DNA from: Parcubacteria group bacterium GW2011_GWA2_42_14
Lineage (GTDB): Bacteria > Patescibacteriota > Minisyncoccia > Sungbacterales > GWA2-42-14
Length of the DNA: 64,000 bases
Assembly: GCA_000998135.1 (NCBI GenBank)
Contig: LCCV01000010.1
Coordinates: 9,073 to 73,072, forward strand
Reading direction: 5' to 3'
The position numbers and the translations under genes were made by a program. Within the stretch, counting starts at the first letter, position 1, and every line of letters starts with the position of its first letter. The notes beneath the pieces are model-generated. The model was not told the DNA's origin. It ran no database searches and saw only the letters and a program-made list of their open reading frames with translations. Shown in pieces: positions 3,411-59,044 of this stretch.

Positions 3411-4034
3411 ATGAGGGTATTAGAAAAAGTTGAACGTCGTTTAGGTGAAAAGCTCTTTTTAAAAGGGGAGCGTTGTCTTGGGCCAAAATGCGCTCATATT
3501 CGCCGTCCTTATCCGCCTGGTGTTCACGGCAAGGGTTCGAGAGCCAGTAACTCTGAATTCGGAATTCAGCTTCGAGAAAAACAAAAAGTAAAATTTTTAT
3601 ACGGTCTTCGGGAGCGGATGCTTGCAAGATATTTCGGTAAAGCTCTTCGCGACAAAAAACATCCGACCGGAGATGCCCTTGTTAATACGCTTGAAAAACG
3701 TTTTGATAATGTTATTTTTAGGGCGGGTTTTGTCGTTTCCCGAAGCATCGCCCGTCATCTTGTAAGTTACGGGCACGTGCTTGTTAATAAACGCACGGTT
3801 ACCAAGCCTTCTTATTCGGTCAGAATCGGCGATATTATAGAATTGTCGCCTAAGGTTTTTAATAATCATGTTTTTGGCGAAGAATTTTTATTCCGTATCA
3901 AAAAACACGAAGCTCCGGAATGGATTAAATTGGATAAGGAAAAGAAAATCGCCGAAATTATAAAAGAGCCGTATGAAAGCGATTTAATTATTGACCCAAA
4001 TATAAAATTAGTTGTTGAGTACTATTCTCGTTAG
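3411..4034 (+). CDS. rpsD: 30S ribosomal protein S4
   Basis: S4 N-terminal Zn-ribbon-like region (CLGPKCAHIRRPYPPGVHG) plus S4 RNA-binding domain. Confidence 0.95.
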   Translation: MRVLEKVERRLGEKLFLKGERCLGPKCAHIRRPYPPGVHGKGSRASNSEFGIQLREKQKVKFLYGLRERMLARYFGKALRDKKHPTGDALVNTLEKRFDNVIFRAGFVVSRSIARHLVSYGHVLVNKRTVTKPSYSVRIGDIIELSPKVFNNHVFGEEFLFRIKKHEAPEWIKLDKEKKIAEIIKEPYESDLIIDPNIKLVVEYYSR

Positions 4035-4130
4035 CGACAAGAGACAAGAGACAAGCGACATGGCAATTTAAAAACGATACCAGTTTTTAAAAAAACATGT
4101 CTCATGTTTCATGTCACATGTTGCAAAAAA

Positions 4131-9810: not shown

Positions 9811-9893
9811 TGGCAAACGCAAACGAGTACGCAACGTTTAACGCAATTGCGTTTAATTTTGCGTTGTATCTTGCGTTTAATTTTTGCTTCTAA
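9811..9893. repeat. hairpin element TTAGAAGCAA...AACGCAATTGCGTT...TTGCTTCTAA, copy 1
   Basis: 10-bp terminal inverted repeat with internal palindromes; related copy at 30390-30480. Confidence 0.55.
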
Positions 9894-15360: not shown

Positions 15361-16485
15361 ATGAAAGGATTATTTATAACAATAGGTATTATTATGACTC
15401 TGGGTCTTGTTTTGGTCGTTATTTTGCCGTTCATGCTGGGATATTCTTCTGAATCCAGGCCCTCATCCGGCAGTTCGGTAAAAACCAAGGATGATATAGG
15501 TTTTTTTAAATCTCAAGACGGAGGCGCTTCTTGGGAGAAAAAAAACGAATCGGAAGAAAGAATTCCCATTAATGCCTTTTCTATTTTGGATTTTGCATTT
15601 TACCCGGCCCTTGTGGACAAGAGCGGGGTTTATTTGAAAGACTCTAAAATAATTTTTGTCGGCACCAAGGGCGGGGGGCTTTGGAAAACCGAGGACGGCG
15701 CCAACTCTTGGAAGAAAGTTTCGGATAAAAATAAAATTCTTGAGGCAGATGCCTGGGTTCATAAAATCGCTATTTCCAAGTCCAATCCTGATGAAATGTA
15801 TCTGGCGGTTTTTCAAAAAAACAGAGGCCGGATTTTAAAAAGCAGCGACGGCGGAAATTCTTTTATAGAAGTTTATTTTACGCCTCTGGAAAAATTCGGA
15901 GTTTTTGATGTATTTGTTGATGAGGCGGGAACGGTTTTTATAGTTACCGGCCAGGGGGGATTTTTTGAAAGCCGGGACCATGGAAAAACCTGGAAAATAG
16001 TCCGTTGGTTTAAGGACGGTTTGATTGAATTGGCGGTTAATCCCAATAATTATTCCACAATGTATGTTTTAAGTCCTCCCGGAAATATTTTTAAAACCCC
16101 GGATAAGGGAAAATCATGGATAGATATTACTCCGGCCTTATCAGAATTTGACGGGGCAAAAATCAACCAGTACTTGTATATTGATCCGGCGTCGTCCAAT
16201 TTGTTTCTTGCTTCCAATTACGGTCTTTTGAAATCTTCTTCAGGTGGAGTTTCCTGGGACCATGTTCGGGTAATAATTCCTCCGGAAGCATTGCCGGCCT
16301 TGGCCGTTGCTACCGATCCGCGCAATGCCGGCATTATTTATGTTTCTGCTTCCAGCCAGCTTTATAAAAGCAGTGACGGAGGCACAAGCTGGTCGGTGGC
16401 GAATTCGCCTTCCGGCAAGAAATTAACCATGCTTAAGATTGACCCGAAAAATCCGGAGGTGATGTACGCGGTAGTATCAAAATAA
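15361..16485 (+). CDS. membrane-anchored BNR/Asp-box repeat protein (Ycf48/sortilin-like beta-propeller)
   Basis: N-terminal TM; at least six S-x-D-x-G-x-(S/T)-W Asp-box repeats (SQDGGASWEK, TEDGANSWKK, SSDGGNSF, SRDHGKTWK, SSGGVSWD, SSDGGTSWS). Confidence 0.7.
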   Translation: MKGLFITIGIIMTLGLVLVVILPFMLGYSSESRPSSGSSVKTKDDIGFFKSQDGGASWEKKNESEERIPINAFSILDFAFYPALVDKSGVYLKDSKIIFVGTKGGGLWKTEDGANSWKKVSDKNKILEADAWVHKIAISKSNPDEMYLAVFQKNRGRILKSSDGGNSFIEVYFTPLEKFGVFDVFVDEAGTVFIVTGQGGFFESRDHGKTWKIVRWFKDGLIELAVNPNNYSTMYVLSPPGNIFKTPDKGKSWIDITPALSEFDGAKINQYLYIDPASSNLFLASNYGLLKSSSGGVSWDHVRVIIPPEALPALAVATDPRNAGIIYVSASSQLYKSSDGGTSWSVANSPSGKKLTMLKIDPKNPEVMYAVVSK

Positions 16486-16545
16486 CCAACAACTCACAAC
16501 TCACAACAACGATATGTGCTGTAAGTTGTGAGTTATGGGTTGTGG
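16486..16545. repeat. CAACAAC / GTTGTGAGTTGTG hairpin element
   Basis: accaacaactcacaactcacaacaacg...gtaagttgtgagttatgggttgtgg; same family at 35845-36050 and 44365-44431. Confidence 0.5.
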
Positions 16546-16553
16546 CTTAAGCT

Positions 16554-20389: not shown

Positions 20390-20566
20390 AGCACGAATAT
20401 AATATTTAATTTAGAGAATAACCGCGAATATTAATTAATTTTGCTAACTTTAACTAATCTGGCCGCAAATTTCACGAATATTTATTCGTGTATATTTGGG
20501 AGCCATTTGTGTAAATTTGCGATTAGAGATATTTAGGTGTATTCAAAAATTAGTAAATATTCGTGG
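20390..20566. promoter_or_regulatory. AT-rich region with five CACGAATAT(T) sites in both orientations
   Basis: Sites at 20392, 20424, 20473, 20482 (reverse) and 20557 (reverse); 20473-20490 is a perfect palindrome CACGAATATTTATTCGTG. Confidence 0.5.
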
Positions 20567-20577
20567 TTATTCTAAAA

Positions 20578-20802
20578 ATGTTTCAAGATGACAACGGAGG
20601 AGGAGGACGCGGAAATTGGCGGGGAGGAGGAGGAAGCGGTGGCGGTGGCCGCGGAAATTGGAATCCGCGCCCTCGCGAAGAGCATCAGGCGGTTTGTTCC
20701 GACTGTGGAAAGGACACAACGGTTCCGTTTCCGCCCACCGAAGGAAGACCGGTTTACTGCAGAGACTGTTATTCAAAAAGGAGAACGAATCGTTATCAGT
20801 AG
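20578..20802 (+). CDS. small Gly/Arg-rich protein with C-terminal CxxC...CxxC zinc ribbon
   Basis: MFQDDNGGGGRGNWRGGGGSGGGGRGNW... then CSDCGKDTTVPFPPTEGRPVYCRDCYSKRR. Confidence 0.55.
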   Translation: MFQDDNGGGGRGNWRGGGGSGGGGRGNWNPRPREEHQAVCSDCGKDTTVPFPPTEGRPVYCRDCYSKRRTNRYQ

Positions 20803-30391: not shown

Positions 30392-30480
30392 AAGCAAAAA
30401 TGAACGCAAGACGTAACGCAAAATTATACGCAATTTGCGTTTAAGGTCGCGTGGTCATTTGCGTTTTATATTGCTTCTAC
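30390..30480. repeat. hairpin element AGAAGCAA...ACGCAATTTGCGTT...TTGCTTCTA, copy 2
   Basis: Related to 9811-9893. Confidence 0.5.
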
Positions 30481-30611
30481 AAAATAAAAAAAGGCCTACT
30501 TTTCTGTTTGGCTGACCGTAAGTTCAGTTGAACGTATTTTTGGAGCGAAAAAGAAAGAGCCCGACGATACCCATAAGAATATCGCCAGGCTGTGAGCCCT
30601 TGTGGGGGCTC

Positions 30612-30866
30612 TTAGCGCTTGTTGCGCTTGCGCCGGGGCGCGGTGCCGCGCGCGCGGTAGCCGCTGCGGAATCGGTCGGAGAGGCTGGTGGAGACGTGTG
30701 CCATCTCCATCTCCACCACGCTCGGTCCTCGCTTCTTCAGAAGCCCGCCGAGCGTGATGAATGCCTCTACGACATTCATGCCGCTTGCTACCGTTCTGCC
30801 GTCAAACTTGATGGCGACTCCGCCATCGTAGGCGGGTCGTGCATGGATGGAAATCCTGCCGCGCAT
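30612..30866 (-). CDS. small arginine-rich protein (84 aa) in a ~65% GC island; unknown function, probably foreign origin
   Basis: ATG preceded by AAGGAGA at -7; protein MRGRISIHARPAYDGGVAIKFDGRTVASGM...RSGYRARGTAPRRKRNKR; hairpin gagcccttgtgggggctc immediately 3' of the stop; the 128-aa ORF-track version adds an AT-rich N-terminus and is probably wrong. Confidence 0.5.
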   Translation of the reverse strand: MRGRISIHARPAYDGGVAIKFDGRTVASGMNVVEAFITLGGLLKKRGPSVVEMEMAHVSTSLSDRFRSGYRARGTAPRRKRNKR

Positions 30867-30975
30867 GCTGGTCTCCTTGGCCAATCGGCCTTTAGGGGGT
30901 TTGAGGCCACGGCGCTTAAAAATACGCCATTTTACTGCTAATCTAATTATAGCATAAATAAATATATTTGTCAAT

Positions 30976-31056
30976 ATGATAAATAAACTTCTCGGCATAT
31001 TTTCAAAAGACCCCGCACCAAATTCCGAAATAGTGCGAGGTAGAATTTGGGGTTAA
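30976..31056 (+). CDS. 26-codon upstream ORF whose first 12 codons (MINKLLGIFSKD) duplicate the MreB N-terminus
   Basis: All differences from mreB codons 1-12 are synonymous; 89 nt upstream of mreB. Confidence 0.3.
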   Translation: MINKLLGIFSKDPAPNSEIVRGRIWG

Positions 31057-31123
31057 CACCGCGGTAACGGCTTCGCCTTACGCCATTTTAAAAAGAAGTT
31101 CTTTTTGAGAATTGGTGCGGGGC
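31008..31123. repeat. ~115-nt element bounded by inverted repeat CCCCGCACCAA / TTGGTGCGGGG (mreB leader)
   Basis: gaccccgcaccaaattcc ... gaattggtgcggggc; related element at 56655-56775. Confidence 0.5.
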
Positions 31124-31144
31124 AAGTATCGAAATTGACCTATT

Positions 31145-32206
31145 ATGATAAATAAATTATTAGGAATTTTTTCTAAAGACATAGGTATTGACCTGGGAAC
31201 GGCCAATACTTTGGTTTACGTTCGTGGGAAGGGGATTGTGATAAATGAGCCGTCGGTGGTGGCGGTTAACCAGAAAACCGGACAGATTGTGGAGATTGGA
31301 ACAGAGGCCAAAAAAATGGTTGGCAGAACTCCTGCCTATATTATAGCATCCCGTCCTTTGGTTGAAGGCGTTATTTCCGATTTTGAAGTAACCGAGGAGA
31401 TGTTGCGTTATTTCATCCAAAAGGTTCACAAAGAAACCTTTTCCTTTTTTCCGAGGCCGCGAGTTGTGATTGGCATCCCATCGGAGGTAACCGAAGTTGA
31501 AAGGAGGGCGGTTGAGGATGCGGCCAGAAACGCGGGAGCCCGTGAAGTTTATTTGATTGAAGAGCCAATGGCCGCGGCCATTGGCGTGCGCATGCCCGTG
31601 CAGGAGGCGGTTGGTTCAATGGTGGTTGATATCGGCGGAGGTACTTCCGATATAGCCGTAATATCTCTTGGCGGAATTGTAGTATCCAAGAATTTAAGAA
31701 TTGCCGGAGATAAATTAAATGACGATATCATCCGTTTTGCCCGCGATGAATATAAACTTTTGTTGGGTGAGCGAACAGCCGAAGACATTAAAATTGCCAT
31801 TGGTTCGGCTTTTGAATTGGAGGAGCCCCTGGAAGCGGTTATGCGAGGCCGCGATTTGGTAACAGGTCTTCCCAAGGAAGTTGTGGTTGATGATTCGGAA
31901 ATCAGGAGAGCCATGCAGCATTCCAATAAAATCCTGGTTCAGGCGATAAAATCAGTGATTGAATCAACCCCTCCGGAACTGGTTGCCGACATAATGCATC
32001 GGGGCATAATTCTTGTCGGAGGCGGTTCGCTTCTTCGCGGACTTGATAAATTGGTAGCTCAAGAAACCAAAATGCCCACTCGCACCGCCGAAGACCCGTT
32101 AACCGCGGTAGTAAGGGGCACGGGAGTGGTGTTGGAAGACATAGACGCGCTAAGGGCTGTTTTAATCGGTTCGTCCTTTTATCAGAAAACACCAAGTACT
32201 TCATAA
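31145..32206 (+). CDS. mreB: rod shape-determining protein MreB
   Basis: Actin-like motifs; first gene of an mreBCD-mrdA cluster. Confidence 0.95.
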   Translation: MINKLLGIFSKDIGIDLGTANTLVYVRGKGIVINEPSVVAVNQKTGQIVEIGTEAKKMVGRTPAYIIASRPLVEGVISDFEVTEEMLRYFIQKVHKETFSFFPRPRVVIGIPSEVTEVERRAVEDAARNAGAREVYLIEEPMAAAIGVRMPVQEAVGSMVVDIGGGTSDIAVISLGGIVVSKNLRIAGDKLNDDIIRFARDEYKLLLGERTAEDIKIAIGSAFELEEPLEAVMRGRDLVTGLPKEVVVDDSEIRRAMQHSNKILVQAIKSVIESTPPELVADIMHRGIILVGGGSLLRGLDKLVAQETKMPTRTAEDPLTAVVRGTGVVLEDIDALRAVLIGSSFYQKTPSTS

Positions 32207-32214
32207 ATCCCAAT

Positions 32215-32310
32215 GCTAAAATCCAAATTTCAAATCAAGCCCAAAATCTAAAAAATCTTGAACCTTGGACTTTGGATTTGATTTTTGCATTAGAACTTTG
32301 ATATTTGGAT
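32215..32310. repeat. AAATCCAAAT / ATTTGGATTT simple-repeat hairpin, intergenic copy of the family found inside genes
   Basis: aaatccaaatttcaaatcaagcccaaaatc ... gatttgatttttgcattagaactttgatatttggattt. Confidence 0.5.
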
Positions 32311-32321
32311 TTTTATAACCT

Positions 32322-33777: not shown

Positions 33778-33900
33778 AAAATTTTAAAGCAGGGCGCAGT
33801 AGACAAAATTATTTTTACGAATTACGAATAAATACGAATTTACGGATATTGTAAATTTTTACGATTCGTATATTTGTAAAAATTCGTAATTCATAAGGTT

Positions 33901-44360: not shown

Positions 44361-44364
44361 TTTA

Positions 44365-44431
44365 ACCAACAACCAACAACTGACAACCAACAACACGTGT
44401 TATGGGTTGTAAATTGTAGGTTGTAAGTTAA
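44365..44431. repeat. CAACAAC / GTTGTAAGTTGTAAG hairpin element
   Basis: ccaacaaccaacaactgacaaccaacaac...gggttgtaaattgtaggttgtaagtt. Confidence 0.5.
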
Positions 44432-46870: not shown

Positions 46871-46982
46871 GCCCCGTTAGAAATCTTTATGAAGCGCATT
46901 TTATTCGGAAAGGCGCAAGATAGAGCCGCTTTGCTTCATGCCGTTAAGCTATAATTTACGTATTGCCGGATTTCTAACGGGG
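46871..46982. repeat. element bounded by inverted repeat CCCCGTTAGAAATC / GATTTCTAACGGGG
   Basis: Related elements at 56836-56950 and 53927-54030. Confidence 0.5.
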
Positions 46983-53857: not shown

Positions 53858-53926
53858 CGGTTGTCCCTGAATAATATGTCAAAGAAACTAGTTTATAGGT
53901 AGCGTATTTTGGGAAATTTTGCAAAC

Positions 53927-54030
53927 CTCGTTAGGTCCCCGTTTAGGAGTTTTTTTATTTGATTTTAAAAAAATTTTCCTTGAATCTTTCGTCTTTGGTT
54001 TTCTGACGGAGTTTTTAGGATCTAACGGGG
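53927..54030. repeat. CCCCGTTTAGGAG / TAGGATCTAACGGGG element
   Basis: Third member of the CCCCGTTAG-bounded family. Confidence 0.4.
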
Positions 54031-54059
54031 CAAAAAGAAAAAGCCCCCGCGCGTTTAAG

Positions 54060-56654: not shown

Positions 56655-56775
56655 TTAACCCCGCACCAAGCTTAATGAATTTCTGTTGTTAGGGGTTGTG
56701 TAAGCCGAAAGGCGATTCCGTGGAATATCTTTTGCATAATTCTGCCAAATTTCGAGCTTTGGTGCTGGGGTTAGC
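56655..56775. repeat. ~120-nt element bounded by AACCCCGCACCAAGC / GCTTTGGTGCTGGGGTT
   Basis: Same terminal motif as the mreB-leader element 31008-31123. Confidence 0.45.
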
Positions 56776-56835: not shown

Positions 56836-56950
56836 CACCCCGTTAGAGGTTTGAAGTTGGGTAGCCGTTTAAAATAGGACGTAAAGCGAAAGCGGCTTAC
56901 GCCTTATATTCATGCCTGAATATGGCCATCTTTAAACCTCTAACGGGGTT
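56836..56950. repeat. element bounded by CACCCCGTTAGAGGTTTG / AAACCTCTAACGGGGTT
   Basis: 14-bp terminal inverted repeats; inner stem gtaaagcgaaagcggcttac. Confidence 0.5.
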
Positions 56951-58938: not shown

Positions 58939-58989
58939 ATCGCCATCTCTGAATTCTAAATAAATTTCAATTGCAATTTTTTAAGTGAA

Positions 58990-59044
58990 TTAAGCGAGTT
59001 AAGCCAGTTAAGCTTAATTTACTTAATTCACTTAACTTGCTTAG
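58990..59044. repeat. hairpin TTAAGTGAATTAAG...CTTAATTCACTTAA
   Basis: 14-bp perfect arms with a 27-nt loop containing TTAAGC repeats. Confidence 0.5.

What the first reader, a model, noticed from the sequence alone, without database searches (positions are those of the whole stretch)
30976..31144. A uORF copies the first 12 codons of MreB using only synonymous changes, followed by a long-range inverted repeat, immediately upstream of mreB
ATGATAAATAAACTTCTCGGCATATTTTCAAAAGAC at 30976 and ATGATAAATAAATTATTAGGAATTTTTTCTAAAGAC at 31145 both encode MINKLLGIFSKD. All 8 nucleotide differences are at synonymous positions, and the upstream copy uses GC-richer codons like the adjacent island. The uORF then diverges and stops after 26 codons. 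Between the two copies lies CCCCGCACCAA...(~85 nt)...TTGGTGCGGGG. Two readings fit: a relic of homologous recombination that brought in the GC-rich island with a donor mreB 5' end, or a conserved leader peptide and RNA structure regulating mreB.
Basis: seen in the sequence. Interest (0 to 1): 0.6.

Follow-up and report, generated by a model that had tools for sequence, protein, structure and literature searches.

The report
Duplicated mreB start around a palindromic repeat
In this uncultured groundwater bacterium, a 169-base block (a palindromic repeat plus a second, synonymously different copy of the first 12 codons) sits inside the start of the cell-shape gene mreB, so the old start now makes only a 26-residue peptide; some strains lack the block, and whether it regulates mreB is not shown.

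Summary
Positions 30976-31011 and 31145-31180 both encode MINKLLGIFSKD, and every difference is synonymous. A 112-nt palindrome lies between the copies.

The genome is Candidatus Sungbacteria RIFCSPLOWO2_12_FULL_41_11. One near-identical contig (L084) lacks exactly 169 nt (31011-31179), and there the "uORF" ATG is the true mreB start. Twelve of 13 contigs of this species carry the block.

The junction AAAGAC|CCCGC, followed by a spacer and a second start, recurs in a sister species (L113; its conspecific L101 is intact) and in a third lineage (L128). The GC-rich island is unrelated: L084 has it without the duplication, and L113 and L128 have the duplication without it.

The palindrome belongs to a dispersed ~111-nt repeat family, with four intact copies and one degenerate copy in the window. 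No Rfam family matches.

Best reading: an old structural allele of the mreB 5' end, made by insertion or recombination, which left two tandem starts. The upstream copy evolves like coding sequence (pS about 0.4-0.6, pN 0-0.12). Either it exchanges with intact alleles or the uORF is itself selected. In silico, the hairpin does not mask the second start. A regulatory role is possible but not shown.

The parts
30976..31056 (+). uORF of 26 codons (MINKLLGIFSKDPAPNSEIVRGRIWG*). Its first 12 codons (30976-31011, the 'F copy') are the original mreB start in its native upstream context.
   Evidence: In the intact allele L084 this same ATG and the next 35 nt open the full mreB gene. The upstream context GTCAAT-ATG is shared with L113 and, as GTCAAC-ATG, with L101.
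31011..31122 (+). 112-nt palindromic repeat unit ('H'). Terminal stem CCCCGCACCAA/TTGGTGCGGGG, central small hairpin GGCTTCGCC followed by TTACGCC, and an AAAAAGAAGTTCTTTTT hairpin.
   Evidence: Best hit of covariance model R1 at 118.5 bits. No Rfam family.
31123..31144 (+). 22-nt spacer ('S') CAAGTATCGAAATTGACCTATT between the palindrome and the working mreB start. Conserved as CGGGG|CAnGnATCGnnAT in four lineages.
   Evidence: 19 of 22 positions are identical to L113.
31145..31183 (+). Second copy of mreB codons 1-13 ('N copy'), which is the working start of mreB (31145-32206). Its codon choices match those of lineages L113, L101 and L102, not the rest of this gene.
   Evidence: All 9 differences from L084 within the first 39 nt lie here; after position 38 the next difference is at position 104.
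31011..31179 (.). The 169-nt block that is absent from the intact allele L084. L084 reads ...TCAAAAGA|TATCGGTATT; the window reads ...TCAAAAGA[169 nt]CATAGGTATT.
30946..30974 (-). Consensus sigma-70 promoter TTGACA-17-TATAAT preceded by TG. Its -35 box abuts the uORF ATG, and it drives the antisense small ORF.
   Evidence: 12 of 12 matches. The same arrangement is in L113 (11 of 12).
30612..30866 (-). 84-aa ORFan with an AAGGAG ribosome-binding site. This is the 60-65% GC 'island'. It is a neighbour of the duplication, not part of it.
   Evidence: Only 3 protein clusters in the database. Terminator-like hairpin at 30558-30591 on the minus strand.
46872..46982 (-). Paralogous 111-nt unit (CCCCGTTAGA... 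subfamily), between uvrC (minus strand) and an S41 peptidase gene (plus strand).
   Evidence: (90.9 bits).
56659..56770 (-). Paralogous 112-nt unit with the same arms as the mreB copy (CCCCAGCACCAA/TTGGTGCGGGG), downstream of groEL.
   Evidence: 110.2 bits.
56838..56948 (+). Paralogous 111-nt unit (CCCCGTTAGAGG...), 64 nt upstream of a 140-aa ORF.
   Evidence: 102.8 bits.
53920..54036 (+). Stretch matched by model R1 that holds a degenerate fifth copy (CCCCGTTTAGGAG...TCTAACGGGG, read by eye in the sequence at about 53938-54030).
   Evidence: 17.6 bits, E = 0.027; sequence.

Best explanation
This is an old structural allele of the 5' end of mreB, not a purpose-built riboswitch-like leader and not a by-product of the GC-rich island.

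A 169-nt block sits directly after codon 12 of the original reading frame. It consists of one copy of a dispersed ~111-nt palindromic repeat, a 22-nt spacer, and a second copy of the gene's first 12 codons. The original start stays in its native context, one base from the -35 box of a strong divergent promoter. It now opens a 26-codon uORF that reads into the 5' arm of the palindrome and stops. MreB is made from the second ATG, 22 nt past the palindrome.

Shown:
- The block is an exact indel relative to an otherwise near-identical contig of the same species.
- The same junction, spacer and second start occur in a sister species and in a third lineage.
- Intact alleles coexist with the block in both sister species.
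- The palindrome has paralogues elsewhere in the window.
- The island is not linked to the duplication.

Inferred:
- The junction arose once. Either the palindrome was inserted together with a duplicated or donor-derived gene start, or a start-less end was joined illegitimately to a homologous mreB anchor. It has since been inherited and passed between related lineages by homologous recombination.
- The two copies differ only synonymously because each is, or recently was, a working mreB start. The upstream copy is the working start in intact alleles that still circulate and recombine with carriers of the block.
- Both ATGs lack a Shine-Dalgarno sequence and lie in AU-rich, predicted-open RNA. 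The second start therefore initiates on its own, and the uORF is a tolerated, translated remnant that at most damps or insulates mreB translation.
For: The exact MreB protein occurs on 13 distinct contigs of this species, 12 with the block and 1 (L084 = L109) without it. L084 matches the window over 7 kb downstream apart from 19 differences. Nine of these cluster in mreB nt 1-39, and six more cluster about 6.5 kb downstream. Upstream the two are near-identical for about 3.2 kb, island included.

The L084 start equals the window's uORF copy at 35 of 35 positions.

L113 is a sister species (85.6% nt identity in mreB). It has uORF ATGATTAATAAATTACTCGGAATCTTTTCAAAAGAC|CCCGCACC..., a 112-nt unit, the spacer and then mreB. 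L101 is 98.8% identical to L113 in mreB and is intact. L128 (77.7%) has the same junction with a 35-nt hairpin, the spacer and a second start. L121 keeps the right arm and spacer.

Across lineages, upstream copies are closer to one another (5-9 differences), and downstream copies to one another (3-7), than upstream copies are to downstream copies (5-12, mean about 9). This fits a single origin.

The unit is one of four strong copies plus one weak copy in 64 kb. Their arms covary: 93% of cells pair, and 5 stem pairs carry compensatory changes.

Mosaic MreB genes (P0004/L127) show that recombination inside mreB happens.

Predicted cost of opening the RNA around the second ATG is 4.9 kcal/mol, and 5.7 with the uORF region held single-stranded. 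It is 7-8 kcal/mol for the old start. No promoter or terminator is predicted inside the block.
Against: The upstream copy evolves like a constrained coding sequence between lineages. Window against L113 gives 5 differences, all synonymous (pS 0.59 against 0.54 for the gene body). Window against L128 gives pN 0.12 and pS 0.43.

In the sister species, the one intact allele available (L101) differs from the L113 uORF copy at 8 of 36 positions. Refreshment from intact alleles is therefore directly supported only in the window's own species.

The palindrome arms, its 3' half and the spacer are about 95% identical between species whose synonymous sites differ by about 54%. That points to constraint or concerted evolution, and a passive scar does not predict it.

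L084 reads GAT ATC at codons 12-13 where the window reads GAC ATA. Neither allele is therefore a simple one-step derivative of the other.

No target-site duplication, transposase or integrase was found, so the insertion mechanism is unknown.

The mreB promoter was not located. Whether the uORF lies on the mreB mRNA is inferred.
Confidence: 0.5

Rival explanations
1. A selected regulatory leader. The uORF, which encodes the MreB N-terminal dodecapeptide, and the hairpin it reads into are kept because translation of the uORF sets or tunes mreB translation. Possible routes are termination-reinitiation or shunt-like delivery of ribosomes to a start without a Shine-Dalgarno sequence, or sensing through the nascent MreB-like peptide.
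For: The architecture is kept in three lineages down to 77% nt identity in mreB. The uORF is intact and in frame across the junction in all three, and always covers the 5' arm. In L128 it stops 12 nt before the mreB ATG. The first 12 codons have pN well below pS. In L128, uORF codon 2 is Leu like that lineage's own MreB, but with a different codon. The junction TTTTCAAAAGACCCCGC and the spacer are conserved at the nucleotide level. The block is the majority allele, 12 of 13 contigs.
Against: Intact alleles without the leader encode the same MreB in the same species. Many relatives also lack it. The hairpin interior and length are not conserved (112 nt against 35 nt), and about 35 nt of it are unalignable between the window and L113. 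uORF length (26, 20 and 28 codons) and tail vary. The L128 uORF carries G7S and I8V. Peptides of 20-28 residues would barely leave the ribosome tunnel (general knowledge). Predicted accessibility of the mreB start does not depend on the hairpin or on uORF occupancy. There is no terminator or anti-terminator pair. The hairpin is a dispersed repeat that also lies outside 5' leaders.
Confidence: 0.3
2. [quoted passage not shown] It is either still mobilisable in trans as a 169-nt mini-element or is the decayed remnant of a larger one.
For: Presence/absence polymorphism with an identical junction in separate clades. In this species both edges of the foreign tract are tight: the upstream copy is all native and the downstream copy is foreign-looking for exactly 13 codons. 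Palindrome arms, its 3' half, spacer and N copy are 92-100% identical between species whose gene bodies are 85.6% identical. The palindrome belongs to a multi-copy family. [quoted passage not shown]
Against: No integrase or transposase lies in the neighbourhood; the genes are proS, mreBCD, a PBP2-type transpeptidase, greA and similar. Only 133 nt lie between the repeats. The other family copies have no duplicated gene ends and no consistent target-site duplication or target motif. Spacer and upstream context follow host phylogeny (window close to L113; L128 close to L121), which argues for vertical descent rather than repeated insertion. The interior of the palindrome differs completely between the window and L113. 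A pure insertion into an L084-type site would give AAAGATATC, not AAAGACATA. No copy was found in viral contigs.
Confidence: 0.14
3. One reading: homologous recombination imported the GC-rich island, and the upstream mreB fragment is the donor's gene end that came along with it.
For: The island is compositionally foreign (60-65% GC against about 41%) and lies 110 nt from the uORF. The upstream copy is slightly GC-richer than the downstream one.
Against: L084 has the identical island but no duplication. L113 and L128 have the duplication with other antisense ORFs in that slot. The upstream copy matches the native type of this gene's body and of L084, and the downstream copy is the odd one. A decayed relative of the island ORF sits in the same slot in L132-L135 without any duplication.
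Confidence: 0.03
4. An assembly artefact or a chimeric contig.
For: Contigs of this species often end inside the repeat units or the island.
Against: The same arrangement is assembled independently in 12 contigs from NCBI, ENA, JGI and Logan sources, and in two other lineages.
Confidence: 0.01

Closest known systems
[quoted passage not shown] PMC8409611, PMC2791158.
   Same: The gene's original 5' coding fragment is displaced upstream. A second, diverged copy of the first codons restores the reading frame. The gene stays functional. Alleles with and without the insert coexist.
   Different: Those elements are 20-100 kb and carry a tyrosine integrase and defined att cores, and their new N-terminus differs in amino acids. 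Here only 133 nt separate the copies, no recombinase is nearby, the peptide is identical, and the insert is a dispersed palindromic repeat.
Small palindromic or inverted-repeat intergenic repeats of bacteria (MITE-like elements such as Neisseria Correia elements, enterobacterial ERIC, pneumococcal RUP, Rickettsia RPE). From my own knowledge.
   Same: About 110 nt long, with long terminal inverted repeats, multiple dispersed copies and mostly intergenic sites. One copy lies inside a coding region, as RPEs do. Contigs break at them.
   Different: Copies share only the termini (CCCCG...CGGGG), the length (111-112 nt) and a central hairpin-plus-CTTAC motif, and their interiors are diverged. No target-site duplication and no parent transposon were found. 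RPEs are read through in frame, whereas here the frame is broken and a second start is supplied.
Leader-peptide and hairpin control of translation (ermC-type leaders, secM-secA). From my own knowledge.
   Same: A short translated uORF runs into a stable hairpin just upstream of the main start.
   Different: No alternative pairing that hides the main start. No stalling motif is known here. The peptide copies the N-terminus of the regulated protein. The hairpin is a repeat element, and the leader is dispensable in conspecific strains.
Programmed translational bypassing (phage T4 gene 60; mitochondrial 'byp' elements). From my own knowledge.
   Same: A hairpin-forming insert in a coding sequence, flanked by matching codons (GAC ... 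GAC).
   Different: The gap is 169 nt rather than 27-55 nt. No stop codon follows the take-off codon. Another GAC lies in the spacer before the proper landing site. The second copy has its own ATG and all 12 codons, so bypassing is unnecessary.

Membership tests
MITE / small palindromic repeat element | Terminal inverted repeats bounding a short non-coding unit | tested here: met
   Perfect 11-nt arms, extendable to 20 nt at 80%. All four strong copies have arms of 10-24 nt.
MITE / small palindromic repeat element | Several dispersed copies of a common length and sequence | tested here: met
   Four copies of 111-112 nt score 91-119 bits with model R1, plus one degenerate copy. Interiors are diverged, with mean column identity of 68%.
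MITE / small palindromic repeat element | Target-site duplication of fixed length at each copy | tested here: not met
   The flanks of the five copies share no duplicated bases of fixed length (sequences). The 36-nt repeat at mreB is diverged and unique to that copy.
MITE / small palindromic repeat element | A parent transposon with the same ends, or filled and empty sites caused by transposition | tested here: inconclusive
   No transposase was seen near any copy. The groEL-proximal copies are fixed in all contigs. The only filled/empty pair is at mreB, and it includes the extra gene start. The rest of the genome could not be read.
Integrative element restoring a gene's 5' end (dusA / prfC type) | Displaced native 5' fragment plus an element-borne replacement start that flank the insert | tested here: met
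Integrative element restoring a gene's 5' end (dusA / prfC type) | Integrase or recombinase and cargo between the repeats or next to them | tested here: not met
   133 nt lie between the copies with no ORF beyond the uORF. The neighbours are housekeeping genes.
Integrative element restoring a gene's 5' end (dusA / prfC type) | An identical att core at both junctions that explains the empty site | tested here: inconclusive
   AAAGA(C) is shared, but the empty allele reads AAAGATATC against AAAGACATA.
Leader-peptide attenuation or translational control | Translated uORF upstream of the regulated gene, conserved in relatives | tested here: inconclusive
   An ORF is present in three lineages and shows coding-like constraint. 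It is absent from conspecific and many related alleles. Translation was not measured.
Leader-peptide attenuation or translational control | Mutually exclusive structures that hide or expose a terminator or the main start | tested here: not met
   No terminator follows the hairpin. Opening energy at the mreB start is 4.9 kcal/mol free and 5.7 with the uORF region held open. Centroid structures leave the start unpaired.
Known RNA families (Rfam 15) | A match at or above the family's gathering score | tested here: not met
   Zero hits in the whole window. Only weak chance-level hits around the units.
Diversity-generating retroelement template/variable repeat pair | Differences confined to adenines of one copy | tested here: not met
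   The changes are C>T, T>A, C>T, C>A, C>A, A>T and A>T. No reverse transcriptase gene is nearby.
Programmed translational bypass | Stop codon right after the take-off codon, and a short gap to the first matching landing codon | tested here: not met
   The codon after GAC is CCC, and the stop comes 14 codons later. The gap is 169 nt, with an earlier GAC in the spacer.

The most novel reading that the evidence does not exclude
The uORF is kept because the cell uses a copy of MreB's own N-terminal dodecapeptide (or its coding RNA) as a leader that tunes MreB synthesis. The first 12 codons of the uORF have stayed MreB-like under purifying selection in three lineages, while everything after them is free to vary. 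It would be a bacterial counterpart of autoregulation through a protein's own nascent N-terminus, built from a repeat-element insertion.
Probability: 0.15. Interest if true: 0.75.

Novelty: new variant of a known kind. Interest (0 to 1): 0.45.

Why it matters
- It shows how a conserved cell-shape gene can carry an insertion inside its coding 5' end and keep working. A second start with identical amino acids takes over, and the old start survives as a translated remnant.
- Gene-end replacement is known for large integrase-bearing elements. Here it occurs on the scale of 169 nt with a palindromic repeat and no recombinase in sight.
- It documents a structural polymorphism shared by sister species of an uncultured Candidate Phyla Radiation lineage, which is direct evidence for recombination in these populations.
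- It reveals a repeat family of about 111 nt that matches no Rfam family.
- Practically, it warns annotators that an upstream ORF copying a gene's N-terminus can be a displaced start.
- It also offers a natural pair of alleles for testing initiation without a Shine-Dalgarno sequence and uORF effects on mreB.

Tried and rejected
- **Known RNA family.** Rfam searches of the whole window and of the units found nothing.
- **Link to the GC-rich island.** Rejected by L084, L113 and L128. The island protein is an ORFan with 3 clusters and no Pfam match.
- **DGR-type mutagenesis.** The differences are not adenine-specific.
- **Long target-site duplication.** The copies differ at 7 positions while the flanks are about 99.9% identical to the intact allele, so this cannot be a recent duplication. 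The other units have no duplicated flanks.
- **Simple deletion of the block between the two copies as the origin of L084.** That would give AAAGACATA, not the observed AAAGATATC.
- **Translational bypass.** The geometry is wrong.
- **Hairpin masking of the mreB start, or coupling through melting.** Not supported by predicted opening energies or centroid structures.
- **Promoter or terminator inside the block.** None predicted. The only consensus promoter points away from mreB.
- **Phage origin.** Four scans of viral contigs gave only chance matches or none.
- **Literature.** Searches for MITEs in the Candidate Phyla Radiation and for mreB leader peptides found nothing relevant.
- **Relatives from the species-representative genome collection.** The best MreB identity there was 73%, and none of the 30 closest loci inspected has the arrangement.
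Full report
**1. Observation**

The repeat finder reports a 37-nt direct repeat at 81% identity. A direct count gives 7 differences, not 8, and all are synonymous. Only about a fifth of single substitutions in these codons are synonymous. None of 200,000 random sets of 8 substitutions kept the peptide, so the pattern is not chance.

The uORF is 30976-31056, 26 codons. The inverted repeat is real. It has 11 perfect base pairs at 31011-31021 and 31112-31122, extendable to 20 nt, and the 112-nt unit folds at -43.3 kcal/mol.

**2. Setting**

The window comes from a Patescibacteria genome. The exact MreB protein is named in NCBI as Candidatus Sungbacteria bacterium RIFCSPLOWO2_12_FULL_41_11.

The gene order is gdh, gap, proS, a small antisense ORF, mreB, mreC, a 155-aa ORF, a PBP2-type transpeptidase, then greA. 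More distant relatives have proS followed almost directly by mreB.

The GC-rich island (60-65% GC against about 41% for the genome) is an 84-aa minus-strand ORFan. It has an AAGGAG ribosome-binding site, no Pfam match, and only three protein clusters in the database.

A consensus sigma-70 promoter (TTGACA-17-TATAAT, preceded by TG) drives it from 30974-30946 on the minus strand. Its -35 box ends one base from the uORF ATG. This explains the conserved TGTCAAT in front of that ATG. The same promoter is in L113.

**3. The key comparison**

Thirteen distinct contigs of this species were recovered through exact-protein look-ups. Twelve have the arrangement of the window. One, L084 (ENA ERZ27254842, k141_1083478, the same contig as L109), does not.

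In L084 the ATG at the position of the uORF opens the full mreB gene: ATGATAAATAAACTTCTCGGCATATTTTCAAAAGATATCGGTATTGAC.... Downstream, L084 differs from the window at only 19 of 7062 positions. Nine of these fall within mreB nt 1-39. Upstream it is near-identical for about 3.2 kb, including the whole island.

The window therefore carries a 169-nt block (31011-31179) relative to L084, plus two synonymous differences at codons 12-13. The block has three parts:
- the 112-nt palindrome;
- a 22-nt spacer;
- a second copy of mreB codons 1-12.

The uORF is the displaced original start.

**4. Relatives**

*Sister species.* The single metagenome scan found L113. Its mreB is 85.6% identical to the window's in nucleotides. 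L113 has the same architecture: uORF ATGATTAATAAATTACTCGGAATCTTTTCAAAAGAC|CCCGCACC... (MINKLLGIFSKDPAPNSEIR*), a 112-nt unit, spacer CAAGTATCGGAATTGACCTT, and mreB starting MINKLLGVFSKD. The slot between proS and mreB holds a different, non-GC-rich antisense ORF.

L101 is 98.8% identical to L113 in mreB, so it is the same species. It is intact: the native upstream context abuts the mreB ATG. Both sister species therefore carry both alleles.

*A third lineage.* L128 (77.7% identity) has ATGCTCAACAAACTCCTCAGCGTATTTTCAAAAGAC|CCCGCG...(35-nt hairpin)...CGGGG|CACGCATCGGCATTTAATTCAAACCACTT|ATGTTAAAT... Its uORF ends 12 nt before mreB.

*Partial and absent cases.* L121 keeps only the right arm and spacer (GTGCGGGG|CAGGCATCGGCATCTTACCACT|ATG). 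L102, L114, L120, L127, L129 and L132 lack the arrangement.

*What follows.* The island is unlinked to the duplication. It is present without the duplication in L084 and absent with it in L113 and L128. A decayed relative of the island ORF sits in the same slot in L132-L135.

**5. Which copy is native**

The upstream copy uses the codons CTT CTC GGC ATA TTT TCA AAA GAT ATC, continuing GGT ATT GAC CTN GGA ACG GCC. That is the type found in L084, L114, L120 and L121, and in the body of the window's own gene.

The downstream copy uses GGA ATT TTT TCT AAA GAC ATA. That is the type found in L113, L101, L102 and L127, whose bodies continue GGY ATA GAT TTG GGT. In this genome the downstream 39 nt is therefore the foreign-looking patch, and it ends exactly at codon 13.

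Across lineages the distances are:
- upstream copies to one another: 5-9 differences;
- downstream copies to one another: 3-7 differences;
- upstream to downstream copies: 5-12 differences, mean about 9.

Spacer and upstream context also follow host relationships (window close to L113; L128 close to L121). Together with the identical junction, this points to one old origin followed by descent and exchange, not to repeated fresh insertions.

**6. The palindrome**

It is one of four intact units of 111-112 nt in the window: 31011-31122, 46872-46982, 56659-56770 and 56838-56948. All begin CCCCG and end CGGGG. There is also a degenerate copy inside 53920-54036.

The copies share:
- the termini;
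- the length;
- a central small hairpin followed by CTTAC.

The terminal stem covaries among copies. 93% of cells pair, and five stem pairs carry compensatory changes. None of 500 shuffles reached the observed covariation score. Palindromic DNA repeats would show the same pattern, so this does not prove an RNA function.

The other copies lie between uvrC and an S41 peptidase gene, and downstream of groEL. They have no duplicated gene ends. They are fixed in all contigs seen.

No Rfam family matches. Viral contigs gave nothing. About 160 kb of related loci gave only the L113 copy. No transposase, integrase or consistent target duplication was found.

**7. Constraint**

Identity between the window and L113, part by part:

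| Part | Identical positions |
|---|---|
| 60 nt upstream of the uORF | 43 of 64 aligned columns |
| uORF copy | 31 of 36 (all 5 differences synonymous) |
| 5' arm of the palindrome | 21 of 21 |
| Next 35 nt of the palindrome | about half, essentially unalignable |
| 3' half of the palindrome | 54 of 56 |
| Spacer | 19 of 22 |
| Downstream copy | 36 of 39 |
| Next 120 nt of mreB | 99 of 120 |

Synonymous divergence of the gene body is 0.54.

Two things are therefore more conserved than neutral sequence. The first is the arms, 3' half and spacer. The second is the amino-acid coding of the upstream copy: pS 0.59 and no amino-acid change against L113; pS 0.43 and pN 0.12 against L128.

For the upstream copy there are two explanations. 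It may be refreshed from intact alleles, in which it is the real start. This is directly supported in this species, where it equals L084 at 35 of 35 positions. It is not supported by the one intact allele known in the sister species, which differs at 8 of 36. Alternatively, the uORF itself may be under selection. I cannot separate these with the data in reach.

**8. How it works**

Neither ATG has a Shine-Dalgarno sequence, and the mreB starts of relatives lack one too. Other genes here do have one.

No plus-strand promoter or terminator is predicted in or near the block. Transcripts probably enter from upstream of the uORF, but the promoter itself was not found.

Predicted folding leaves the second start unpaired. 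Opening energies for the -15 to +15 region are:
- second start, RNA free to fold: 4.9 kcal/mol;
- second start, uORF region held single-stranded: 5.7 kcal/mol;
- old start: 7-8 kcal/mol.

The hairpin does not mask the mreB start, and melting it by uORF translation should not help.

My working mechanism is two tandem, independent start sites without Shine-Dalgarno sequences. The first yields a short peptide that ends in the palindrome. The second yields MreB. Any effect of the block on MreB level is quantitative rather than a switch. This is inference from sequence and folding only.

**9. Comparison with what is known**

The nearest precedent is integration into a gene's 5' end with replacement of promoter and N-terminus. 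This is shown for dusA-specific islands and recalled for SXT in prfC (PMC8409611; PMC2791158). The logic is the same: the native fragment is displaced, a diverged copy restores the frame, and filled and empty sites coexist. The membership test fails on the defining recombinase and element body.

The palindrome resembles MITE-like repeats in size, arms and copy number. It lacks a target duplication and a known parent element.

Leader-peptide control, translational bypass and DGR mutagenesis each fail at least one defining feature (see the membership table).

**10. Verdict**

I rate it a new variant of a known kind: gene-start replacement at an insertion site, here in miniature and built around a palindromic repeat, and segregating in two sister species.

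Confidence:
- 0.5: it is an inherited and exchanged structural allele with no dedicated regulatory role.
- 0.3: the uORF and hairpin are selected as a leader.
- 0.14: it is, or was, a site-specific mobile element carrying its own rescue start.
- The island-linked reading and an assembly artefact are essentially excluded.

Noticed in passing
window 30392-30975; L113 1010-1438; L128 1990-2404; L129 713-1500; L132 1126-1500: The slot between proS and mreB holds a different small antisense ORF in each lineage. The window has an 84-aa, 65%-GC ORFan. L113 has an 86-aa ORF, L128 a 58-aa ORF and L129 two ORFs. L132-L135 have a decayed relative of the window's ORF with an in-frame stop. In the window and L113 the ORF is preceded by a near-consensus divergent promoter next to the mreB start. 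It looks like a variable gene slot.
   Followed up: partly
window 30392-30500 against L113 1010-1120: The roughly 130 nt after the proS stop are built of ACGCAA/TTGCGT word palindromes. They are about 92% identical between the two sister species, more conserved than the adjacent proS coding sequence (54-83% per 100 nt).
   Followed up: no
window 4031-4127, 9815-9878, 16483-16549, 33815-33896, 44362-44431, 58981-59043: Many gene ends carry long imperfect palindromes made of short repeated words (for example AACCAACAACTCACAAC / GTTGTGAGTTATGGGTT). They are probably terminators of a style peculiar to this lineage.
   Followed up: no
P0004 / L127 222-1289; P0012: The MreB of L127 is a mosaic. Its first third is 72-74% identical to the window in nucleotides and the rest 83-89%, ending with the window's C-terminus. 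P0012 is a P0003-type MreB with a foreign internal patch. Recombination inside mreB appears common in these populations.
   Followed up: partly
L087-L089, L095-L100 (contig ends): Metagenome contigs of this species often end inside the 111-nt repeat units or inside the GC-rich island. This suggests strain variation or assembly difficulty at these elements.
   Followed up: no
window 20409-20579: A 171-nt unit bounded by 34-nt inverted repeats at 85% complementarity (ATTTAGAGAATAACCGCGAATATTAATTAATTTT...). It is unrelated in sequence to the CCCCG family.
   Followed up: no
window 32218-32313: A 17-nt inverted repeat at 94% complementarity (AAAATCCAAATTTCAAA / TTTGATATTTGGATTTT) with 62 nt between the arms, in the AT-rich gap between mreB and mreC.
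   Followed up: no
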